Positions 1 to 59,635 of a DNA stretch of 64,000 bases are shown here, piece by piece. The stretch comes from an uncultured Candidatus Saccharibacteria bacterium (lineage in GTDB: Bacteria; Patescibacteriota; Saccharimonadia; Saccharimonadales; JBBQAJ01). The stretch spans positions 389,283 through 453,282 of the forward strand of contig CAZQHP010000001.1 of NCBI GenBank assembly GCA_964593805.1. The letters are read 5' to 3'. The notes beneath the pieces were generated by a model. That model was not told where the DNA came from and did not search any database. It saw only the letters and a list, made by a program, of their open reading frames with translations. Position numbers and translations under genes: made by a program. Numbering within the stretch: the first letter of the stretch is position 1; the number at the start of each line of letters is the position of its first letter.

Positions 1-153
1 ATTACAATACAAAACCACTTGGCTGTCTTTGGGTATCTCTTCCAAGCCCCGTGAATTATTCATTAGCCCGCTAAGCGGTATGTTCAGAGCCCCTTCCACG
101 TGTCCCAAAGCGTATTCACCAGCCTCCCGCACGTCAACAATAACTGTCCCCAT
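1..153 (-). CDS. Rhodanese-domain protein, N-terminal part (gene runs off the left edge)
   Basis: Minus-strand ATG at 153-151. My translation is MGTVIVDVREAGEYALGHVEGALNIPLSGLMNNSRGLEEIPKDSQVVLYCN, which fits the rhodanese pattern (DVRE..E...GH..GA.NIP...LYC). It is absent from the ORF track because it is truncated to 51 codons. A TATACT box (161-166, minus) lies 7 nt upstream of the ATG. Confidence 0.55.
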   Translation of the reverse strand, partial: MGTVIVDVREAGEYALGHVEGALNIPLSGLMNNSRGLEEIPKDSQVVLYCN

Positions 154-174
154 ATGAAAAAGTATAACAAATCG

Positions 175-197
175 TGGCTGGAGACGGGGGATTCGAA
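175..197 (-). repeat. 23-nt copy of the tRNA-Gln 3' end (att-like direct repeat)
   Basis: TGGCTGGAGACGGGGGATTCGAA (175-197) matches TGGCTGGGGAGGAGGGATTCGAA (1854-1876) at 20 of 23 positions in the same orientation. No matching 5' acceptor strand follows, so this is a fragment and not a gene. Confidence 0.6.
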
Positions 198-263
198 ACT
201 TTTCGTATGAATTTGCCGAAAGATACTTGCTGTTTATAATAAAAATGATATAGTATATTAATT

Positions 264-863
264 ATGTCACACTCTAGGCCGGGTGGAAGCTTGCAAGGAA
301 TCAACTGGTCTATTGAACGCGGCCTAGTTAAGCCAAGTCTTGCCGAAACGGCTGGGCTTGAAATATTAGGCGCAATTGCTACCGATCACCCTATGGTCAG
401 TTTTGACCATTCACAACCAGAGCATGGCTATACCGGCTATCTAATAGATGGGCTGGATGATATTAAGAAGAAAGATATTTCCGCCCCAGACTTTTGTTTT
501 AGTTCACTGATGGTAGTGAGGGGTGCGTTCACTCCGTTTAAAGATCCAGACTTGCTTGGGGATAAAGAGACATCGCACTACCACCAGGGCATGGTAAATG
601 TTCTTGAGCCCAGCGGCAGAGTGCCAGGCCATAGAGATAGTCAAACCTGGTCACTAGTTTTCGTAGCGCTGACGGCTAAAGCCAAAGCCAAGATAAAAGG
701 TCCGGGGGAAGGTGACTACACCGAAGAAATCCTTCGTCCAGGCGATGCGGTAGTAATTACGAATCCGAAGCAAAAAAGCCAACGTCCAAAACACGAAATT
801 ATAAATCTCTCTCGTTTACCGCGGGTATCTTACGGTGAATACACAACCCAACAAAGAAAATAA
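264..863 (+). CDS. Hypothetical protein, possible 2-oxoglutarate/Fe(II) oxygenase fold
   Basis: ORF track, 199 aa. Read by eye: H123-R-D125, then H177, then R187-V-S189. This is the HxD...H...RxS spacing of double-stranded beta-helix oxygenases. No other family recognised. Confidence 0.45.
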   Translation: MSHSRPGGSLQGINWSIERGLVKPSLAETAGLEILGAIATDHPMVSFDHSQPEHGYTGYLIDGLDDIKKKDISAPDFCFSSLMVVRGAFTPFKDPDLLGDKETSHYHQGMVNVLEPSGRVPGHRDSQTWSLVFVALTAKAKAKIKGPGEGDYTEEILRPGDAVVITNPKQKSQRPKHEIINLSRLPRVSYGEYTTQQRK

Positions 864-959
864 AAACACCAGCCAGGTTTAGAAATTACATACTGAAGGC
901 TTGGCTGGGGATCTAGCGAATGACTCTTGGCGAGGGATAGTTAACGAGGTGAGAATTGC

Positions 960-1838
960 TTAATCTGTAGGAGATGTCTTGACCGGTACATCTCCCAAAT
1001 TATGCCTCATCAATATATCTTTTGCTCTAGACTTTGCAGAGCCGGGCACATATACACCACTAGAGAGTTTAAGAACATGGTCTACGCTGAGGTTTTGAAG
1101 TATGTAACAGTTGTCCCTCACATTACATACCTGTCCGTTAACAGTGAATTTACCTTTTTTGAAGAACGAACTAATCCTACTAAGTTCCCTTTTTTCTGAT
1201 TCCGTAATTATTCGGGTATTTATTTTGTTTGTCATGTAGTTTTTGAAAGAGCTTGGTATTCTCCACTCATTCTGGTGGTAGTATGCAAGCTGCTTGTTGG
1301 TTTTTCCTGTAGGAGTAACCAATCTTATGAAGCCTTGTAAATTATCCGATAGAGTTTTAAAATTTACATTTTCTTGCCTGAATCGTATTAAATCAGGTTG
1401 ATGTTCATGCACGTACACAAGCACATCGTTTATATCCGCAAATGTTTTCATAAATAGACCGCTCATGGCTTCTGTGATGCTTGTACCTTGTGCGGTAAGT
1501 ACTGGTGATGGGGGTATGTAAATTGCTGGGAAAAGTCCAAGCTCATCTGTTGCCGTGGCATTGAACTCAATAGCAAATTCACCAAAAATTTTTGAATGTG
1601 CTTTTAGTTCAGATTTAGGGATACAGGTTAAACACAAGGTTGTTTCCAAATTCTCGACCGGGTTTCCGCGACTTCCGTCACGCAAAATCTGATAATACCT
1701 ATGTACTCGTGGTGTCAGTACAAAACCCAGCCGTGCCATAGAGTCCAGAACCTCAAGGCCTCTCTCAATTCTTCGTTCCTTGTTTAAGCCAGGCCTGCGG
1801 GGAAAATTATGATAAAAATACAATTTTGGTTGCGTCAT
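960..1838 (-). CDS. AbiGi-like abortive-infection family protein
   Basis: ORF track, 292 aa. Three blocks resemble the conserved blocks I recall for lactococcal AbiGi-type proteins (FCDIP......H...YG.YGI.....G..PV.Y and EREWR): FYHNFP near the N-terminus, LCLTCIPKSELKAHSKIFGEFAIEFN...GLFPAIYIP, and YYHQNEWRIP. Not verified by HMM. Confidence 0.5.
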   Translation of the reverse strand: MTQPKLYFYHNFPRRPGLNKERRIERGLEVLDSMARLGFVLTPRVHRYYQILRDGSRGNPVENLETTLCLTCIPKSELKAHSKIFGEFAIEFNATATDELGLFPAIYIPPSPVLTAQGTSITEAMSGLFMKTFADINDVLVYVHEHQPDLIRFRQENVNFKTLSDNLQGFIRLVTPTGKTNKQLAYYHQNEWRIPSSFKNYMTNKINTRIITESEKRELSRISSFFKKGKFTVNGQVCNVRDNCYILQNLSVDHVLKLSSGVYVPGSAKSRAKDILMRHNLGDVPVKTSPTD

Positions 1839-1853
1839 TTTAAATTGGCCTTA

Positions 1854-1927
1854 TGGCTGGGGAGGAGGGATTCGAACCCCCGATCGTGGAACCAGAATCC
1901 ACTGCCTTACCACTTGGCCACTCCCCA
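1854..1927 (-). tRNA. tRNA-Gln (anticodon CUG), CCA encoded
   Basis: The reverse complement is TGGGGAGTGGCCAAGTGGTAAGGCAGTGGATTCTGGTTCCACGATCGGGGGTTCGAATCCCTCCTCCCCAGCCA. It folds as a cloverleaf: acceptor TGGGGAG/CTCCCCA, anticodon stem GTGGA/TCCAC with loop TTCTGGT (anticodon CTG), T-loop TTCGAAT, discriminator G, then CCA. Confidence 0.9.
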
Positions 1928-3197: not shown

Positions 3198-3202
3198 GCG
3201 TA

Positions 3203-3380
3203 CTTTAACAACGTAAGAATATAAAGAGCGCAGCGAGAGATCTAGCTCAACGACCTGCCAGCAACCTATCTGAAAAGACAAGGTGCTCCATCTAGCCCGC
3301 CTGGCGGGAAAGATAAGTTTGCGCTGACATAAACGCATTATCAATCCTTTCCGCCGCTGTAGGCAGAAAGGATATTTTTT
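3203..3380 (+). promoter_or_regulatory. SAM-I-type (S-box-like) riboswitch, copy 1, upstream of split metE
   Basis: The core reads AAAGAGCGCAGCGAGAGATCTAGCTCAACGACCTGCCAGCAACC...AAGGTGCTCCATCTAGCCCGCCTGGCGGGAAAGATAAG. It aligns block by block with the S-box consensus AAGAG..GAGGGA.TGGCCC.ATGA....GCAACC...GGTGC.AATTCC.GC-hairpin-GAAAGATGAG. A second copy at 5434-5667 covaries in P2 and P4. A TGcTACAGT promoter at 3187-3195 overlaps the upstream stop codon. Confidence 0.7.
3344..3380 (+). terminator. Riboswitch expression-platform terminator
   Basis: ATCCTTTC (3344-3351) pairs with GAAAGGAT (3366-3373) and is followed by ATTTTTT and then the ATG at 3381. GGGAAAG at 3307-3313 can pair instead with CTTTCC as an antiterminator. 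Confidence 0.6.
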
Positions 3381-5667: not shown

Positions 5668-6783
5668 ATGACAAAAACAACTTTATTTACCAGCGAATCA
5701 GTCTGCGCCGGCCATCCGGACAAAATCTGCGACGCTATCAGCGACGCCCTGCTAGACGAAATTTTGCGGCAAGATCCACAGGGGCGTGCCGGGATTGAAT
5801 CGGTAGCCGGCGCCAATCAGATTTGCCTGTTTGGAGAAACAAAAACGACCGCAAAACTAGACAAAGAAGCCATTGTGCGCGAACTAGTCCAGCGGCTTGG
5901 CTATGCGGTGCCTGCCTGGGGGTTTTCCCAAGAATCCAGTTTTAGCGACGATATTCACCAGCAATCACCTGAAATTTCAATTGGGGTTGACCAAGAGGGC
6001 GCCGGCGACCAAGGCATGATGTTTGGCTACGCCTGCGACGAAACGCCGGAACTTATGCCGCTGCCAATCACGCTGGCTCACGCCCTGACTCGCCGTATAG
6101 ACGAAGTTCGCGAAAAGAAAATCCTAGACTACATTCGCCCCGACGGCAAAGCCCAAGTAACCATCCGTTATGAAGACGACAAACCAGTAGCAGTTGAAAA
6201 AGTTGTAATAGCAGTTGCTCATAGCGAAAACACCGACCCATCGACTGTGCACGCTGGAGTAGTCAAAGAAATCATCACGCCGGTTCTGGCCAAGTACAAA
6301 CTAGCCGTGCCAAGCGATGAAAACATCACCATAAATGGCACTGGTTTGTGGCACATCCCCGGGCCGGAATCAGACGCCGGACTAACTGGCCGCAAGATTG
6401 TGGTTGACGGCTACGGCGGCTACGCCCGCGTGGGCGGCGGCGCTTTTTCTGGCAAAGACCCGTCCAAAGTGGACCGTTCTGGCGCTTACGCCGCCCGCTA
6501 CATTGCCAAAAACATCGTAGCCGCGGGGCTGGCTACCAAGTGCGAAGTGGGACTGGCTTACGTAATTGGCCAGCCAAAACCGCTAATGCAAACCATAGAA
6601 ACCTTTGGCACCGCCACTGTTTCGGACGCGGAATTGCATGCTTTCAAAGACAAACTCATAGACACTTCCGTCAAAGGCATTATAGACACGCTAGACCTGC
6701 GCCGCCCCATCTATTCTCAAACGTCTGCCTATGGTCACTTTGGCAAAGACGGCTTGCCCTGGGAGAAGGTAGTAAAAGCTTAA
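5668..6783 (+). CDS. metK: S-adenosylmethionine synthetase
   Basis: 371 aa. FTSESVCAGHPDKICDAISDALLD, GAGDQGMMFGYA and GGGAFSGKDPSKVDRSGAYAARY are classic MetK signatures. Confidence 0.95.
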   Translation: MTKTTLFTSESVCAGHPDKICDAISDALLDEILRQDPQGRAGIESVAGANQICLFGETKTTAKLDKEAIVRELVQRLGYAVPAWGFSQESSFSDDIHQQSPEISIGVDQEGAGDQGMMFGYACDETPELMPLPITLAHALTRRIDEVREKKILDYIRPDGKAQVTIRYEDDKPVAVEKVVIAVAHSENTDPSTVHAGVVKEIITPVLAKYKLAVPSDENITINGTGLWHIPGPESDAGLTGRKIVVDGYGGYARVGGGAFSGKDPSKVDRSGAYAARYIAKNIVAAGLATKCEVGLAYVIGQPKPLMQTIETFGTATVSDAELHAFKDKLIDTSVKGIIDTLDLRRPIYSQTSAYGHFGKDGLPWEKVVKA

Positions 6784-56585: not shown

Positions 56586-56661
56586 CTCAATAACTTTTGC
56601 ATTCCAGACACGAATCTCCCATCCCCAGCTAATTTTTAATCGTATGCATTATACTTAGGCA

Positions 56662-57189
56662 ATGGATTACAGACTGCCGCTAATACTGTCGGCTTTGTTG
56701 ATAAATGGAGTGCACGGTTCGTTACTTGTATTTCATAAAACTAAGCGAAAATGGACTATCAGCGAACACGCAATTTTGGGTAAAAAATCCTTCCTTGTTT
56801 ACGTTATCGGCCACTTGCTGAACGGTATATTGTTTTTAATCTTTGCTAGAAACTATTTCCTAGGCGTTGTGAGCATGAAAGGTATATTTGCTTTGAGCGT
56901 CTGGACCGTGGCATTTGAATATATACAGGCCTTGCTGCCAGCAAAGGGTAAAACAAACGTGCCTCACACAATCGCAGCTTTAACTATGTGGGTTTCGTTT
57001 CTGTCATTAGGGTTGCTCTGTATAGCTTTCCTGCCTGTGGGAGCTTCCAGAAAAATATTAGCGTCGGTGACGTATTCTTGCATACTTGCTGTTTTGGTTT
57101 ATGCCAACAGCCATAGGCAAGAAACATATTCATGTCAGATGCTCATGGTTTTATTGTTCTATGCAGCAATGCTAGTACTTGTGGCTTAA
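56662..57189 (+). CDS. Hypothetical polytopic membrane protein
   Basis: 175 aa with about 5 hydrophobic helices. It lies inside the repeat-bracketed insertion. Confidence 0.5.
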   Translation: MDYRLPLILSALLINGVHGSLLVFHKTKRKWTISEHAILGKKSFLVYVIGHLLNGILFLIFARNYFLGVVSMKGIFALSVWTVAFEYIQALLPAKGKTNVPHTIAALTMWVSFLSLGLLCIAFLPVGASRKILASVTYSCILAVLVYANSHRQETYSCQMLMVLLFYAAMLVLVA

Positions 57190-57247
57190 CCAAAAATCCC
57201 AACCTCGTTAACTGCCCCCAGCCAATCTATTTTGCACAAAATAACAC

Positions 57248-57361
57248 CTACAGAGGAACGTCCACTTTTTTGCCCACGCCCAGCCCGTCTGCGGTCCGCA
57301 GCAAAGACCCCACATTGTGGCAACTCCGCAAATTATGAGCAATCAACACAATCTTTCGCAT
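57248..57361 (-). pseudogene. Truncated 5' fragment of a trmH paralogue (37 codons, then stop)
   Basis: My translation is MRKIVLIAHNLRSCHNVGSLLRTADGLGVGKKVDVPL*. The intact gene reads MRDIVLIAHNLRSCHNVGSLLRTADGLGVTKVYL. The upstream promoter copy has a degraded -10 box (CACACT). Confidence 0.65.
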
Positions 57362-57421
57362 AACCCCAGTGTGTAAACTTCCCGCACTTTGTAAAGCTCT
57401 ATAATCGTCCCTTATCTCCAG
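57276..57421. repeat. Direct repeat copy 2
   Basis: See 55817-55961. Confidence 0.75.
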
Positions 57422-57429
57422 CCAGTTTT

Positions 57430-57909
57430 TTAAAAAGTCTCAGACTCCCCTACAGGAACTGGCTTACAATATTCCACTACGTTACTAGAAATAACGTCGT
57501 GTACCGATACGAAGGCTGGATACCACGTTTCGTAGCCTTCGTCGCCAGTGAGTTCAACGTAGTCATCAAGAATATCATGTAGATTGGTGGCAAACTTTAC
57601 TTGATCCTCGGAAGCTAATGCTGGTCCGAAAGCAAATTCCACAGTGTACTGCCCACCACCAACATCCGTCACTAGAATATCCGACTGGCTACAAGCAAAG
57701 TACCCAGCAGCAAAACTGAGCTTTGCCCATGTTTCCGCATCCGGGAGCGCTCGCATCATCTCAGCGATACCAGCGTCTGAAGGTTCAAAATGTTGAGCTA
57801 TTTCAGGAAAAGTATCTTTCGGGGGGAGTTCGGCCTCTTCTCTTGAGCTACAAGACCCAGCAACCAAACCAAGAGCAGCGCCTACCACTAGACTTCTTAA
57901 ATATTTCAT
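57430..57909 (-). CDS. Putative lipoprotein, unknown function
   Basis: 159 aa. Signal peptide with the lipobox-like LVAGSC. Acidic mature domain. Confidence 0.5.
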   Translation of the reverse strand: MKYLRSLVVGAALGLVAGSCSSREEAELPPKDTFPEIAQHFEPSDAGIAEMMRALPDAETWAKLSFAAGYFACSQSDILVTDVGGGQYTVEFAFGPALASEDQVKFATNLHDILDDYVELTGDEGYETWYPAFVSVHDVISSNVVEYCKPVPVGESETF

Positions 57910-57967
57910 TGACTTTATTTATATCATTTATTATGCGCCTAGACTAATCACAACATTTTGATAACGT

Positions 57968-57991
57968 GGTTCGAATCCTGCACCCCCAGCC
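57968..57991 (+). repeat. Orphan tRNA 3'-end fragment (T-loop plus acceptor strand), possible att remnant
   Basis: GGTTCGAATCCTGCACCCCCAGCC consists of a T-loop, 3' T-stem, 3' acceptor ACCCCCA, discriminator G and CC. No complementary TGGGGGT or 5' T-stem lies in the preceding 75 nt. Confidence 0.5.
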
Positions 57992-58036
57992 TGGAACACT
58001 TAGCTTTATGAACTAGCTATGGTTATAATAGGCGCT

Positions 58037-59635
58037 ATGAGTCAAGATGCTAGGGCGGACGAAGAAGCCAATACGCTGCGGCGAGCGCAGATTCTGAATC
58101 TTCAGTATTCTGATACCTCTGCCAGCCAGAAACAGCTGTACAAAGACCTGCTGCCACTGCCGGATATGTACAATTTGCGTGTGGTTCCGCTTGTGGCGGA
58201 TGATCACAATGTAACTTTTGGCGTCACCAACACGACTTCACAGCAAACCATGACCCGGATGCGCCAGCAATTTTTGGATCAGCGAGTTACTTTCATGCTG
58301 ATTTCTGACACCGGCTACCGTGAATACATGAAGCTTTACGACCCGCCAAAAGCCGTAGAATACCATAACATTTCGCTGGCGCGGAGCGGCAATGATGACC
58401 GATCTGCCCAGGTATCGGCCACGCTTGAACAAGTCCGCGCCGACGATATGTTGGCTTATTTGGTACAGCAAGCGCACGGACTGAACGCTTCAGACATACA
58501 CCTAGAAACTCAAAAAGATTTTACCCGCGTGCGGTTTCGAGTAGACGGCGTACTGCACGCTGTGGCACGGCTCAGCGCTGAAAAATACCGCGTCCTAATC
58601 GCGGCCATTGCCAGCGCCGGCAACATATCCACTTCTGCCGCCGATGCCCAGCAGGGGCACATAGCCCAAAAAGTCAAAATGGCCGACGGAGCGGAAGTAG
58701 ACGTAAATGTTCGCCTGGAAACCGTGCCTACCATCAACGGCATAGATGTGGTCATGCGCCTGTTTAACATGGACCAGGCCATGTACAGCCTGGACCGGCT
58801 TGGCCTGTCGCCGCCCGAACGGCAAGTAGTGGACGATATTATTGCCAAACCCAGCGGCCTGGTGCTGGCGGTGGGTCCGACTGGTTCGGGCAAGACGACC
58901 ACCCTGTACTCTATGCTGAACAGCCTGAACATAGAAGAACGCAAAATTATCACCATTGAGGACCCGGTGGAATACCAGTTTGCCGGCATCACGCAGATTT
59001 CGGTAACGTCTCAAAATTCTCAGGAAACCAACTTTGCGGACAAATTGCGCGCGGTACTGCGCCTGGATCCGGATATTGTGATGGTGGGCGAGATTCGCGA
59101 TGGCGACACGGCCAAAACGGCCCTGCAAGCGGCTCTAACTGGCCACCTAGTGCTTTCTACCTTTCACGCCAGCTCTGCCGCCGCGGCGCTTACCAGGATG
59201 ATGGACGTGATTGGGCAAAACCCGCTGTTTGTGTCCGCCATACGCCTGGTGATGGCCCAGCGCTTGGTGCGTCGTTTGGATGACCAAACCAAGCAAGCCT
59301 ACCAGCCAGACCAAGCCGCGCTAGGCAAAATTCGCGAAGTTTTGGATACTTTGCCGGCTGGCGTCCAAAAACCAGCGCTCGAAGGGTTACAGCTTTACAA
59401 ACCCGGTTCATCAGATGAAAACCCCTATGGTTTTAAAGGCCAGTTGGCTCTCCGCGAACAGTTTATGATGAAAGGCAAGGTAGCTGAATTGCTAAGCGAA
59501 GGCCACAGCCCTACTACGCAGGACATAGAAGCCGCGGCCATCGCCAGCGGGATGACTACCATGCTGCAAGACGGTATCCTGAAAGTCGTAGCCGGCCAAA
59601 CGACCCTAGAAGAACTCTACCGCGTCATCGGATAA
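58037..59635 (+). CDS. pilB: Type IV pilus / type II secretion ATPase (PilB/GspE family)
   Basis: Walker A GPTGSGKTTT, the Asp box and Walker B (IVMVGEIRD), the His box (LVLSTFHA) and an N-terminal GspE_N-like domain. The ORF track starts at 58019. The ATG at 58037 lies 7 nt after TATAAT. Confidence 0.85.
   Translation: MSQDARADEEANTLRRAQILNLQYSDTSASQKQLYKDLLPLPDMYNLRVVPLVADDHNVTFGVTNTTSQQTMTRMRQQFLDQRVTFMLISDTGYREYMKLYDPPKAVEYHNISLARSGNDDRSAQVSATLEQVRADDMLAYLVQQAHGLNASDIHLETQKDFTRVRFRVDGVLHAVARLSAEKYRVLIAAIASAGNISTSAADAQQGHIAQKVKMADGAEVDVNVRLETVPTINGIDVVMRLFNMDQAMYSLDRLGLSPPERQVVDDIIAKPSGLVLAVGPTGSGKTTTLYSMLNSLNIEERKIITIEDPVEYQFAGITQISVTSQNSQETNFADKLRAVLRLDPDIVMVGEIRDGDTAKTALQAALTGHLVLSTFHASSAAAALTRMMDVIGQNPLFVSAIRLVMAQRLVRRLDDQTKQAYQPDQAALGKIREVLDTLPAGVQKPALEGLQLYKPGSSDENPYGFKGQLALREQFMMKGKVAELLSEGHSPTTQDIEAAAIASGMTTMLQDGILKVVAGQTTLEELYRVIG

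What the first reader, a model, noticed from the sequence alone, without database searches (positions are those of the whole stretch)
175..1927. Integrase-less 1.7-kb islet inserted at the 3' end of tRNA-Gln, bracketed by a 23-nt copy of the tRNA end
Seen directly:
- The last 23 nt of tRNA-Gln (1854-1876, TGGCTGGGGAGGAGGGATTCGAA) recur at 175-197 (TGGCTGGAGACGGGGGATTCGAA) with 20 of 23 identical, in the same orientation.
- The second copy is not part of a foldable tRNA.
- The bracketed segment holds two convergent genes (264-863 and 960-1838) that look AT-richer than the flanking rhodanese and PAP2 genes.
- A third 10-nt core match (TGGCTGGGGA, 902-911) sits exactly between the two genes. This hints at two successive insertions at the same site, although a single 10-mer match could be chance.

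Established knowledge: tyrosine-integrase elements target tRNA 3' ends and leave exactly this direct-repeat geometry.

Inference: this is a decayed or satellite-type island, since no integrase is present, in a lineage where such elements are poorly described.
Basis: partly seen in the sequence, partly recalled or inferred. Interest (0 to 1): 0.7.

Follow-up and report, generated by a model that had tools for sequence, protein, structure and literature searches.

The report
Integrase-less two-gene islet at tRNA-Gln
A 1.7-kb stretch of foreign DNA, carrying a phage-defence-like gene and an AlkB-like repair-enzyme gene, sits at the end of a glutamine tRNA gene in a small-genome Saccharibacteria bacterium and is bounded by leftover copies of the tRNA end; the pattern is a familiar one, but here it comes as compact one-gene modules that recur in related genomes.

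Summary
tRNA-Gln(CTG) lies at 1854-1927 (-). Its last 23 nt (T-loop to CCA) recur at 175-197 with 20 of 23 identical and in the same orientation. These are the only two such matches in 64 kb; about 1e-4 are expected by chance.

The bracketed 198-1853 has the lowest GC (0.42 against 0.50) of any equal-sized stretch of the window. It holds an AbiGi-family gene with no other detectable relative and a rare AlkB-fold dioxygenase gene.

The internal 10-mer is real. It matches the clade's tRNA end over 11-13 nt. An 80%-identical copy of the dioxygenase gene on another contig is flanked by tRNA-Gln-end copies at both ends. The islet is therefore two one-gene modules.

Relatives (Saccharimonadales) keep tRNA-Gln-p68-PAP2 but carry different DNA downstream of the tRNA. 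One has three stacked modules. Two IMG/VR phage contigs carry a tyrosine integrase next to a 31-32-nt copy of this tRNA's 3' part (int-attP). No relative of those two integrases lies within about 74 kb here; other recombinase types were not screened.

Verdict: an integrase-less islet built by tandem accretion (CIME-like), a known kind newly seen in this lineage. A dedicated cassette-like system is not excluded.

The parts
1..154 (-). 5' part of the chromosomal rhodanese gene (left flank; it runs off the window). Its start codon is only 20 nt from the distal repeat.
   Evidence: The full gene is at L003 9630-9890 and matches PF00581 at E 5e-17.
175..197 (-). Distal direct repeat: a 23-nt copy of the tRNA-Gln 3' end (T-loop to CCA), 20 of 23 identical. 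It is the outer att-like boundary.
   Evidence: It is not part of a tRNA.
213..240 (+). Sigma-70-like promoter match (TTGCCG-16-TATAAT, 10 of 12) upstream of the dioxygenase gene.
   Evidence: Consensus scan only, so weak evidence. L096 has TTGCGA-17-TATAAT at the equivalent place (read from the sequence).
264..863 (+). Module B cargo: a 199-aa AlkB-fold Fe(II)/2-oxoglutarate dioxygenase-like protein (the module spans 198-901).
   Evidence: - Invariant H123-x-D125...H177...R187 across 24 family members.
- AlphaFold2 model with pLDDT 93.8.
- Foldseek top hits are AlkB, E 2e-9, TM about 0.55.
- Weak 2OG-FeII_Oxy Pfam hits in family members.
- Only 20 cluster representatives among 1.84e9.
899..911 (-). 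Internal partial copy of the tRNA-Gln 3' end (CTTGGCTGGGGAT). It is the boundary between the two modules.
   Evidence: An equivalent copy lies 40 nt after the stop codon of the homologous gene in L096.
960..1838 (-). Module A cargo: a 292-aa AbiGi-family protein (the module spans 912-1853). It starts 15 nt after the tRNA 3' end and runs in the same direction.
   Evidence: - Pfam PF10899: 35.7 bits against a cut-off of 22.4, E 1e-8.
- PADLOC AbiGi, E 0.002.
- Only itself found among 5.8e9 protein clusters.
- GC 0.398.
1854..1927 (-). tRNA-Gln(CTG), intact. Its 3' 23 nt (1854-1876) form the proximal repeat / attB-derived junction.
   Evidence: ARAGORN. Rfam tRNA, 62.2 bits.

Best explanation
The stretch 198-1853 is horizontally acquired DNA. 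It was inserted by site-specific (tyrosine-integrase type) recombination into the T-loop-to-CCA segment of tRNA-Gln(CTG) in a Candidatus Saccharimonadales genome.

Two insertions happened in succession at the same attB.
- The older one is now distal: the AlkB-like dioxygenase module, 198-901.
- The younger one lies next to the tRNA: the AbiGi-like module, 912-1853.

Each insertion duplicated the tRNA 3' end. The copies that remain are 175-197 (20 of 23) and 899-911 (13 nt).

No integrase is kept. The recombinase came in trans or was lost, so the islet is now a CIME-like, tandemly accreted remnant. Because its att copies are degenerate, it is probably immobile, or at best excisable only as one unit.

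Expression (inferred):
- The AbiGi-like gene has no room for its own promoter, so it is read through from the tRNA-Gln promoter.
- The dioxygenase gene uses its own promoter in the AT-rich 198-263.

Function (inferred from family membership only):
- The AbiGi-like product acts in abortive infection or toxin-antitoxin type phage defence.
- The dioxygenase acts as an AlkB-type oxidative demethylase of nucleic acid, or performs a related hydroxylation.
For: **Shown here**
- The repeat geometry is highly improbable by chance and ends exactly at the tRNA's 3' terminus and at the T-loop.
- GC and tetranucleotide usage are the most deviant in the window. GC is 0.398 for the proximal gene and 0.47 for the distal gene, which fits younger and older arrivals.
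- The cargo genes have no relatives, or very few. Neither is found in any of about 100 related loci.
- Relatives with 73-89% identical PAP2 keep tRNA-Gln-p68-PAP2 but have unrelated DNA downstream of the tRNA.
- Relative L088 carries three further tRNA-end copies (21 nt, 19 of 23, and 15 nt) that bound three stacked modules holding an 82-aa ORF, a P450 gene, and a 138-aa ORF with a GIY-YIG fragment.
- L099/L103 has one module with a GNAT gene at tRNA-Gln(TTG).
- All 7 extra free copies of a tRNA-Gln 3' 15-mer in the loci held are downstream of and co-oriented with the tRNA; none is upstream or on the other strand.
- The dioxygenase gene recurs at 80% aa identity in L096 with a tRNA-Gln-end copy on each side and different neighbours.
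- Phage contigs L093 and L091 carry a 32-nt or 31-nt identity block to the tRNA-Gln(CTG) 3' part, not a tRNA, 127 nt and about 1 kb from tyrosine-integrase genes. The L093 gene matches PF00589 at E 3e-39, and the two integrases are 39.5% identical.
- More distant relatives of that integrase sit 100-200 nt from the 3' ends of other tRNAs, in convergent orientation.

**Established knowledge**
- Decayed elements that keep attL and attR are called CIMEs, and they accrete in tandem at the 3' ends of tRNA genes (PMC5704250).
Against: - No empty site with the same flanks was found, because synteny downstream of the tRNA differs in every relative.
- No relative of the two phage integrases lies in the window or in 9.7 kb to its left. 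The rest of the 776-kb contig could not be read, and other recombinase types were not screened.
- The islet shares nothing with phages L091 and L093 apart from the att block, nor with the INPHARED phage collection.
- The phage identity blocks are 31-32 nt long but the repeat is 23 nt. The element that inserted here was therefore of another type, or the inner 9 nt have drifted.
- The present tRNA 3' strand pairs perfectly with its 5' strand, including a lineage-specific 7-66 G-C pair. It is therefore unclear which copy is native.
- The modules are very compact, with 15-66 nt of flank. Random deletion from a 20-30-kb element does not obviously predict this.
Confidence: 0.6

Rival explanations
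1. A dedicated cassette system. The modules are born small: one gene plus one tRNA-Gln-end-like att site. An integrase acting in trans inserts and excises them at the tRNA-Gln 3' end. Arrays grow from the tRNA outward, and proximal, co-oriented cassettes are expressed from the tRNA promoter. This would be analogous to integron cassettes at attI/Pc, or to recombinase-less pseudo-SCC elements at rlmH.
For: - The modules are very compact. Non-coding flanks are 15 and 48 nt (AbiGi), 66 and 38 nt (dioxygenase), and 47 and 23 nt (the L088 P450 module).
- The same gene is bounded by att-like copies in two genomes with different neighbours.
- A 41-42-nt hairpin-bearing variant of the tRNA end is 95-100% identical across contigs of GC 0.32-0.47, and its stem covaries.
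- Five of eight module genes are co-oriented with the tRNA.
- The AbiGi-like gene has no room for a promoter.
Against: - In the window the att copies are degenerate (20 of 23, and 13 nt), so the modules cannot now be excised separately.
- No integrase was found next to any array.
- Only one cassette was seen twice, and a 50%-identical homologue (L106) has no repeats in its short flanks.
- The hairpin variant is absent from the window.
- A strong deletion bias in a 0.8-Mb genome could produce the compactness on its own.
Confidence: 0.25
2. Acquisition by natural transformation. Foreign DNA entered by homology-facilitated illegitimate recombination, with the conserved tRNA-Gln gene serving as the one-sided homology anchor. 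No site-specific recombinase was involved.
For: - Type IV pilus genes (PilB-like at 58019-59635, PilS-like in the left flank) are present.
- Saccharibacteria are known to be naturally competent (own knowledge, not tested here).
- The tRNA is nearly identical across relatives.
Against: - That mechanism does not produce a direct repeat of the anchor's 3' end at the far boundary.
- It does not produce repeats that always start at CCA and end at or near the T-loop in several genomes.
- int-attP modules for exactly this site exist.
Confidence: 0.07
3. No mobile element is involved. The copies are decayed remnants of tandem tRNA-Gln gene duplications, and the two genes are fast-evolving lineage-specific genes.
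For: - Some relatives carry longer tRNA-Gln-derived pseudo-copies with internal tRNA pieces (L097; upstream of the tRNA in L088).
- The distal copy would give a perfect GGGGG/CCCCC T-stem.
Against: - Only the 3'-terminal segment survives, always anchored at CCA, always downstream and co-oriented.
- Composition is the most foreign in the window.
- The gene plus both repeats recur in another genome.
- Phage attP sites match the same segment.
Confidence: 0.05
4. The similarity is due to chance.
For: None beyond the fact that three of the 23 positions differ.
Against: - 0 of 100 shuffles give a second hit, and the analytic expectation is about 9e-5.
- The repeat boundaries coincide with tRNA landmarks.
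- The same pattern recurs in other genomes.
Confidence: 0.01

Closest known systems
Genomic islands and prophages integrated by tyrosine integrases into the 3' end of tRNA genes (P4/lambda-type; T-loop-to-3'-end sublocation; own knowledge of Williams 2002, not read here)
   Same: - An intact tRNA at one end.
- A direct repeat of the tRNA's T-loop-to-CCA segment at the other end.
- Atypical composition and variable occupancy among relatives.
- Phages in the same clade with int-attP for this tRNA.
   Different: - No integrase, and no excisionase, replication or structural genes.
- Only 1.66 kb and two genes.
- The slot next to the tRNA, where relatives of the integrase normally sit in convergent orientation, is taken by a co-directional AbiGi-like gene.
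CIMEs (cis-mobilizable elements) and tandem accretion at att sites (Streptococcus ICESt1/ICESt3 family; review PMC5704250)
   Same: - The element lacks integration and transfer genes but keeps attL and attR.
- Two units are stacked at one attB with a chimeric internal att.
- The location is the 3' end of a conserved gene.
   Different: - Derivation from a larger element is not shown.
- The units are single genes.
- The att copies are degenerate.
- The host is a Patescibacteria episymbiont lineage, and no conjugative partner is known.
Integron gene-cassette arrays
   Same: - One-gene units, each bounded by a recombination-site copy.
- The newest unit is nearest the insertion site.
- The first cassette is promoterless and read from an upstream promoter (here the tRNA promoter, which is inferred).
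   Different: - No intI next to the array.
- The sites are tRNA 3'-end copies, not attC.
- Orientation is mixed.
- In the window the sites are decayed.
SCC / pseudo-SCC composite islands at the 3' end of rlmH in staphylococci (own knowledge)
   Same: - Tandem units at the 3' end of a conserved gene, separated by direct repeats of that gene's end.
- Some units lack recombinases and depend on recombinases supplied in trans.
   Different: - SCC uses serine recombinases (Ccr), and its units are kilobases long with many genes.
- No recombinase is identified here.
AbiGi (PF10899) of the lactococcal AbiG abortive-infection pair, and AlkB-family dioxygenases
   Same: - The AbiGi-like protein passes Pfam's own threshold.
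- The dioxygenase has the HxD...H...RxS motif and an AlkB-like fold.
   Different: - No AbiGii partner gene, and the AbiGi-like protein has extra N- and C-terminal regions.
- The dioxygenase does not reach any Pfam gathering score and has about 15% identity to AlkB.

Membership tests
tRNA-integrated genomic island (tyrosine-integrase type) | Intact tRNA gene at one boundary | tested here: met
   tRNA-Gln(CTG) at 1854-1927; ARAGORN and Rfam, 62 bits.
tRNA-integrated genomic island (tyrosine-integrase type) | Direct repeat of the tRNA 3' segment at the other boundary | tested here: met
   175-197, 20 of 23 identical, same strand, 0 of 100 shuffles.
tRNA-integrated genomic island (tyrosine-integrase type) | Integrase gene inside the element, usually next to the tRNA | tested here: not met
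   - The only two ORFs of at least 60 aa without a larger overlapping ORF are the AbiGi-like and AlkB-like genes.
- No relative of the two clade phage integrases was found in the six-frame ORFs of the window or of 9.7 kb of left flank (phmmer and hmmsearch).
- Distant or other recombinase types were not screened.
tRNA-integrated genomic island (tyrosine-integrase type) | Composition distinct from the host genome | tested here: met
   Lowest GC of all equal-sized windows; tetranucleotide distance in the top 0.6%.
tRNA-integrated genomic island (tyrosine-integrase type) | Absent from related genomes (an empty site exists) | tested here: inconclusive
   - The islet genes are absent from all relatives, and the tRNA's 5' side is conserved.
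- The distal flank differs in every relative, so no exact empty junction was recovered.
- The Logan contigs break inside the tRNA for another reason.
tRNA-integrated genomic island (tyrosine-integrase type) | Excision / circular form | not testable with these tools
   Needs reads or an experiment.
CIME (cis-mobilizable element) | Retains attL and attR | tested here: met
   The outer pair is 20 of 23 identical; the internal site is reduced to 13 nt.
CIME (cis-mobilizable element) | [quoted passage not shown] | tested here: met
   Only two cargo genes are present.
CIME (cis-mobilizable element) | Derived by deletion from an autonomous integrative element | tested here: inconclusive
   No similarity to the tRNA-Gln-targeting phages L091 and L093 beyond the att block, nor to the INPHARED phage collection.
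CIME (cis-mobilizable element) | Mobilised in cis after accretion with an incoming element | not testable with these tools
   Experimental.
Integron cassette array | intI integrase with an adjacent attI and Pc | tested here: not met
   No relative of the two clade phage integrases within about 74 kb; IntI itself was not specifically searched for. The insertion site is a tRNA 3' end.
Integron cassette array | attC-type imperfect palindromes bounding each cassette | tested here: not met
   In the window the boundaries are plain tRNA-end copies. A hairpin-bearing variant exists only in other genomes.
Phage satellite (P4-like, PICI and similar) | Own integrase, replication and helper-hijacking genes | tested here: not met
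   Two genes only. PHROGs gives one weak hit of unknown function.
AbiGi family (PF10899) | Score above Pfam's gathering threshold | tested here: met
   35.7 bits against 22.4, E 1.1e-8, residues 68-218. PADLOC AbiGi E 0.002.
AbiGi family (PF10899) | Adjacent AbiGii partner gene (two-gene AbiG system) | tested here: not met
   The neighbour is convergent and has an AlkB fold, not AbiGii.
AlkB-like Fe(II)/2OG dioxygenase | HxD...H iron triad plus RxS 2OG-binding motif | tested here: met
   H123, D125, H177 and R187 are invariant or nearly so in 24 sequences.
AlkB-like Fe(II)/2OG dioxygenase | Double-stranded beta-helix fold similar to AlkB | tested here: met
   pLDDT 93.8. Foldseek top 50 hits are mostly AlkB/ALKBH, E down to 2e-9, TM about 0.55.
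AlkB-like Fe(II)/2OG dioxygenase | Sequence-profile membership (Pfam gathering score) | tested here: not met
   Only sub-threshold hits (E 0.005-0.09) in a few family members. The family profile against PDB hits AlkB at E 0.05.

The most novel reading that the evidence does not exclude
Saccharimonadales, and possibly other Patescibacteria, may use the 3' end of tRNA-Gln genes as a platform for arrays of compact one-gene cassettes.

- Each cassette carries a tRNA-Gln-end-like recombination site. In some genomes this is a conserved 41-nt version with a GC hairpin inserted in the T-stem.
- A Xer-like tyrosine integrase supplied in trans, for example by phages of the L093/L091 type, inserts and excises the cassettes.
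- Proximal cassettes are expressed by read-through from the tRNA promoter.

Functionally this would be an integron-like gene-capture system in bacteria with genomes of about 0.8 Mb. The window's islet would be a two-cassette array, and 56.6-58.0 kb would be a second array that has become detached.
Probability: 0.25. Interest if true: 0.75.

Novelty: new member of a known kind. Interest (0 to 1): 0.45.

Why it matters
Saccharibacteria are obligate episymbionts with genomes of about 0.8 Mb. How they gain accessory and defence genes is poorly documented.

Prophages have been predicted in them in bulk: 120 in one survey (PMC10746230). Two full-text searches found no description of att sites or tRNA-linked islets in this lineage.

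This case shows four things:
- tRNA-Gln is a recurrent integration hotspot in the clade.
- Matching phage int-attP modules exist.
- A defence-type gene and a nucleic-acid-repair-type gene were kept as minimal modules.
- Such modules stack.

If the modules prove to be mobile as single-gene units, that would be a new route of gene capture in reduced genomes. It would also give a natural, defined insertion site for genetic tools in Patescibacteria.

Tried and rejected
**Searches for an empty site**
- A genome-contig scan with the neighbouring Ddl protein found no relative.
- An exact-protein look-up of p68, meant to find strain variants, returned only the same sample. The two Logan contigs break inside a 29-nt stretch of the tRNA 3' part. 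A second tRNA-Gln sharing that stretch probably explains the break, so it says nothing about heterogeneity.
- Contigs of PAP2 relatives at 83-89% identity gave no matching distal flank.

**Searches for relatives of the cargo**
- The AbiGi-like protein found only itself.
- tblastn of both cargo proteins against INPHARED phages gave no match. The plasmid collection was not searched.
- tblastx and tblastn of the islet against phage loci and all other loci gave only the att block.

**Structure**
- The AlphaFold2 model of the AbiGi-like protein, made without an alignment, was useless (pLDDT 35), so no fold search was run on it.

**RNA checks**
- Rfam at E<=1-5 on both repeat clusters and on relatives' modules found only the tRNAs.

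**Readings considered and rejected**
- The 23-mer as a dispersed genomic repeat: it occurs only in two clusters.
- The 175-197 copy as part of a pseudo-tRNA: rejected.
- The AbiGi-like or dioxygenase genes as split or disguised integrases: no support.

**Not done**
- I did not build a covariance model of the hairpin-rich modules. Too few and too heterogeneous sequences were in hand.
- A whole-window Pfam annotation was prepared but replaced by a targeted integrase search.
Full report
**Source and setting.** The window comes from a 776,748-bp metagenome contig (ena:ERZ27284378:k139_508325). The same locus is also present in a Logan assembly of SRR8863434. PAP2 homologues are named by their sources as Candidatus Saccharimonadales / Saccharibacteria, of the Patescibacteria group. 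Locus L003 extends the window 9.7 kb to the left. There the gene order is Ddl(+), a 115-aa cupin-like gene(-), rhodanese(-), then the islet.

**Observation.** The only tRNA in the window is tRNA-Gln(CTG) at 1854-1927 on the - strand.
- Its 3' 23 nt read TGGCTGGGGAGGAGGGATTCGAA on the + strand. They recur at 175-197 as TGGCTGGAGACGGGGGATTCGAA, 20 of 23 identical, on the same strand.
- At up to 3 mismatches these are the only two hits on either strand. No shuffle gave any hit. I compute an expectation of about 9e-5.
- In tRNA terms the repeat is the T-loop, the T-stem 3' strand, the acceptor 3' strand, the discriminator G and CCA. Identity ends at CCA on one side and at the T-loop on the other.
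- The distal copy is not part of a tRNA.
- The bracketed 198-1853 holds two convergent ORFs, 264-863(+) and 960-1838(-).
- Its GC is 0.42 against a window mean of 0.503, the lowest of all 1656-nt windows. Its tetranucleotide distance is in the top 0.6%.

**The internal copy is real.** TGGCTGGGGA at 902-911 is one of two exact occurrences in the window, with 0.15 expected.
- Relatives' tRNA-Gln(CTG) ends in ...ATCCCCAGCCA, whereas the window's ends in ...CTCCCCAGCCA with a compensating 7-66 G-C pair.
- The 902 copy matches the relatives' form over 11 nt. It matches CTTGGCTGGGGAT over 13 nt with phage locus L091.
- The decisive evidence is the 199-aa protein's homologue P0143 (80% identical) on Logan contig L096.
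  - There the gene is preceded by TGGCTGGGGAGGAGGGA, which ends 50 nt before the start codon.
  - It is followed, 40 nt after the stop codon, by TGGCTGGGGAGGAGG + a GC hairpin + GGGATTCG.
  - DNA homology to the window covers the gene and its 3' tail up to that repeat. The neighbours are different: an LNT gene and a CAP gene, not rhodanese.
- The islet is therefore two one-gene modules:
  - 198-901, the dioxygenase module.
  - 912-1853, the AbiGi-like module.

**Cargo.**
- The 292-aa protein passes Pfam's threshold for AbiGi (35.7 against 22.4 bits) and hits PADLOC AbiGi weakly. It has no other relative among 5.8e9 protein clusters in the word-indexed search. There is no AbiGii partner.
- The 199-aa protein has no Pfam family of its own.
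  - It belongs to a rare family of 20 representatives among 1.84e9, with an invariant H-x-D...H...R motif.
  - Its AlphaFold2 model is confident (pLDDT 93.8).
  - The model's best structural matches are AlkB and ALKBH enzymes (E 2e-9, TM about 0.55). Weak sequence support agrees.
- The AbiGi-like start codon lies 15 nt after the tRNA's CCA, with an AAGG 11 nt upstream. It has no room for its own promoter, so I infer co-transcription with the tRNA.
- The dioxygenase gene has a TTGCCG-16-TATAAT match at 213-240.

**Relatives.** An alignment of PAP2 homologues retrieved 80 loci from species-representative genomes. Exact-protein look-ups gave the closest contigs.
- tRNA-Gln(CTG)-p68-PAP2 is conserved in L005, L085/L086 and L088.
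- Downstream of the tRNA every relative is different, and none has the islet genes.
- L088 (PAP2 84% identical) has three further copies of the tRNA 3' end: at 6211 (21 nt), 4801 (19 of 23) and 3556 (15 nt, then a hairpin). They bound three stacked modules:
  - an 82-aa ORF;
  - a P450 gene with only 47 and 23 nt of flank;
  - a 138-aa ORF with a GIY-YIG fragment.
- L085 has a gene-less 221-nt module between the tRNA and a 15-nt copy.
- A metagenome scan for the hairpin variant found it 209-854 nt downstream of tRNA-Gln(CTG or TTG) genes on every hit contig that held a tRNA. One of these modules carries a GNAT gene.
- Across all loci held, the 7 free extra copies of a tRNA-Gln 3' 15-mer are all downstream and co-oriented. 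Only L085 and L088 come from an unbiased sample, which is 2 of 13 tRNA-Gln loci.

**Who could insert them.** A scan of IMG/VR for the tRNA-end 23-mers found two phage contigs, L093 and L091, of GC 0.47. They carry GATCGGGGGTTCGAATCCCTCATCCCCAGCCA (32 nt, or 31 nt) with no tRNA around it.
- In L093 the block lies 127 nt beyond a 280-aa tyrosine integrase (PF00589, E 3e-39). The contig also carries M23/holin, SLT and YqaJ genes.
- In L091 an integrase 39.5% identical to that one starts about 1 kb from the block.
- More distant relatives of this integrase in IMG/VR sit 100-200 nt from the 3' ends of tRNA-Leu, -Ala and -Ser genes or fragments, in convergent orientation.
- tRNA-Gln(CTG) is therefore a phage attB in this clade.
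- No relative of these integrases is found in the six-frame ORFs of the window, its left flank or the relatives' loci.

**Mechanism.**
- Shown: the repeat geometry, the foreign composition, the modular structure, the recurrence, and the existence of matching int-attP modules.
- Inferred: two successive integrase-mediated insertions at the tRNA's T-loop-to-CCA attB, with the newest nearest the tRNA. GC of 0.398 (proximal) against 0.47 (distal) fits this order.
- Also inferred: the integrase was lost or never present. That makes the islet a tandemly accreted, CIME-like remnant in the sense of PMC5704250.
- Which repeat copy is native cannot be decided.
  - The tRNA's present 3' strand pairs perfectly with its 5' strand.
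  - The distal copy would give a better T-stem but a worse acceptor stem.

**What does not fit simple decay.**
- The modules are tightly trimmed to one intact gene.
- One module recurs elsewhere with both of its boundaries.
- A 41-42-nt hairpin-bearing version of the tRNA end is nearly identical across distant contigs.

These points keep alive a cassette-like, trans-mobilised system. I rate that at about 0.25.

**Literature.** Prophages in Saccharibacteria have been predicted in bulk (PMC10746230). Two full-text searches found no description of att sites or tRNA-linked islets in Patescibacteria.

**Verdict.** The islet is a new member of a known kind (an integrase-less, att-bounded islet at a tRNA gene) in a lineage where such elements had not been described. 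Interest is moderate, and would be higher if the cassette reading holds.

Noticed in passing
window 56609-57992 (+ strand sense): A second cluster of tRNA-Gln-3'-end-like fragments, inverted relative to the first and with no tRNA nearby.
- 56609-56631: CACGAATCTCCCATCCCCAGCTA (18 of 23).
- 57216-57224: CCCCAGCCA.
- 57416-57424: CTCCAGCCA.
- 57968-57992: GGTTCGAATCCTGCACCCCCAGCCT (19 of 23).

The fragments separate single genes: a 192-aa ORF, a 175-aa membrane protein and a 159-aa lipoprotein-like ORF. They end 26 nt before a PilB-like gene.

This region is the second most deviant in the window by tetranucleotide usage. It may be a detached array.
   Followed up: partly
L088 3556-6850: A relative (PAP2 84% identical) has an array of three modules downstream of tRNA-Gln. 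They are bounded by tRNA 3'-end copies at 6211, 4801 and 3556. The cargo is an 82-aa ORF, a P450 gene, and a 138-aa ORF with a GIY-YIG fragment.
   Followed up: yes
L088 3556-3600; L096 4403-4450; L098/L100; L101; also L085 7322-7542 and L097: A conserved 41-42-nt 'hairpin-att', TCGAATCCCTGCCTACCGGCAGGCAGGCCTC(C/A)TCCCCAGCCA. It is the tRNA-Gln 3' end with a GC hairpin inserted in the T-stem.
- It is 95-100% identical across contigs of GC 0.32-0.47.
- The hairpin stem covaries (CCTGCC/GGCAGG against CCCGCC/GGCGGG).
- It closes gene-less, hairpin-rich modules of about 210-230 nt directly downstream of tRNA-Gln genes. The L085 module folds at -69.3 kcal/mol, z -4.3.
- No Rfam family matches.

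Whether it is an RNA gene, a single-stranded-DNA recombination site or a scar is unresolved.
   Followed up: partly
L088 6860-6965: Upstream of the L088 tRNA-Gln lies a degenerate copy of the tRNA's 5' two-thirds. Its D-loop and anticodon loop are replaced by small hairpins. It ends in ...GATCGGGG|TGAGAAATGCC, the same junction motif seen in the L085 and L098 modules.
   Followed up: no
L093 8393-9394; L091 1125-2930: Two IMG/VR phage contigs carry Xer-like tyrosine integrases next to a 31-32-nt copy of the Saccharimonadales tRNA-Gln(CTG) 3' part. These are probable attP sites of Saccharibacteria phages. L091 has about 1 kb without ORFs between att and int.
   Followed up: yes
window 1854-1927: The window's tRNA-Gln(CTG) differs from those of all close relatives by a compensatory 7-66 pair (U-A to G-C). 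This gives it the acceptor stem seen in tRNA-Gln(TTG) genes of relatives. Gene conversion between the two tRNA-Gln genes, or replacement of the 3' end by an element, are possible explanations.
   Followed up: no
L089 1-1172 (and the JGI contig of P0004): In the two closest PAP2 relatives (85-89% identical) a Crp-family regulator gene lies between the 5' side of tRNA-Gln and p68. The window has only 155 nt there. The upstream side of the tRNA is therefore also variable.
   Followed up: no
window 152-197: The rhodanese start codon is 20 nt from the distal repeat. Before the insertions the rhodanese gene would have sat about 20 nt downstream of tRNA-Gln in the same direction, just as the AbiGi-like gene does now (15 nt). 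Its present promoter must lie inside the islet's AT-rich 198-263.
   Followed up: no
L002 / L107 (Logan SRR8863434): The Logan assembly breaks on both sides of the 29-nt stretch GGCTGGGGAGGAGGGATTCGAACCCCC of the tRNA. This points to another sequence in that sample sharing the stretch, probably tRNA-Gln(TTG).
   Followed up: partly
L044 11875-12660 against L003 7319-9890: The PilS-like/rhodanese block lies on the opposite side of tRNA-Gln-PAP2, and in the opposite orientation, in relative L044. This suggests inversions with an endpoint near the tRNA-Gln array.
   Followed up: no
L085 8928-9030: A SAM riboswitch (47 bits) lies downstream of PAP2 in a relative, ahead of the gene that follows PAP2 there (a MetE-like pair occupies that position in the window). 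The equivalent window region, about 3198-3380, was not checked.
   Followed up: no
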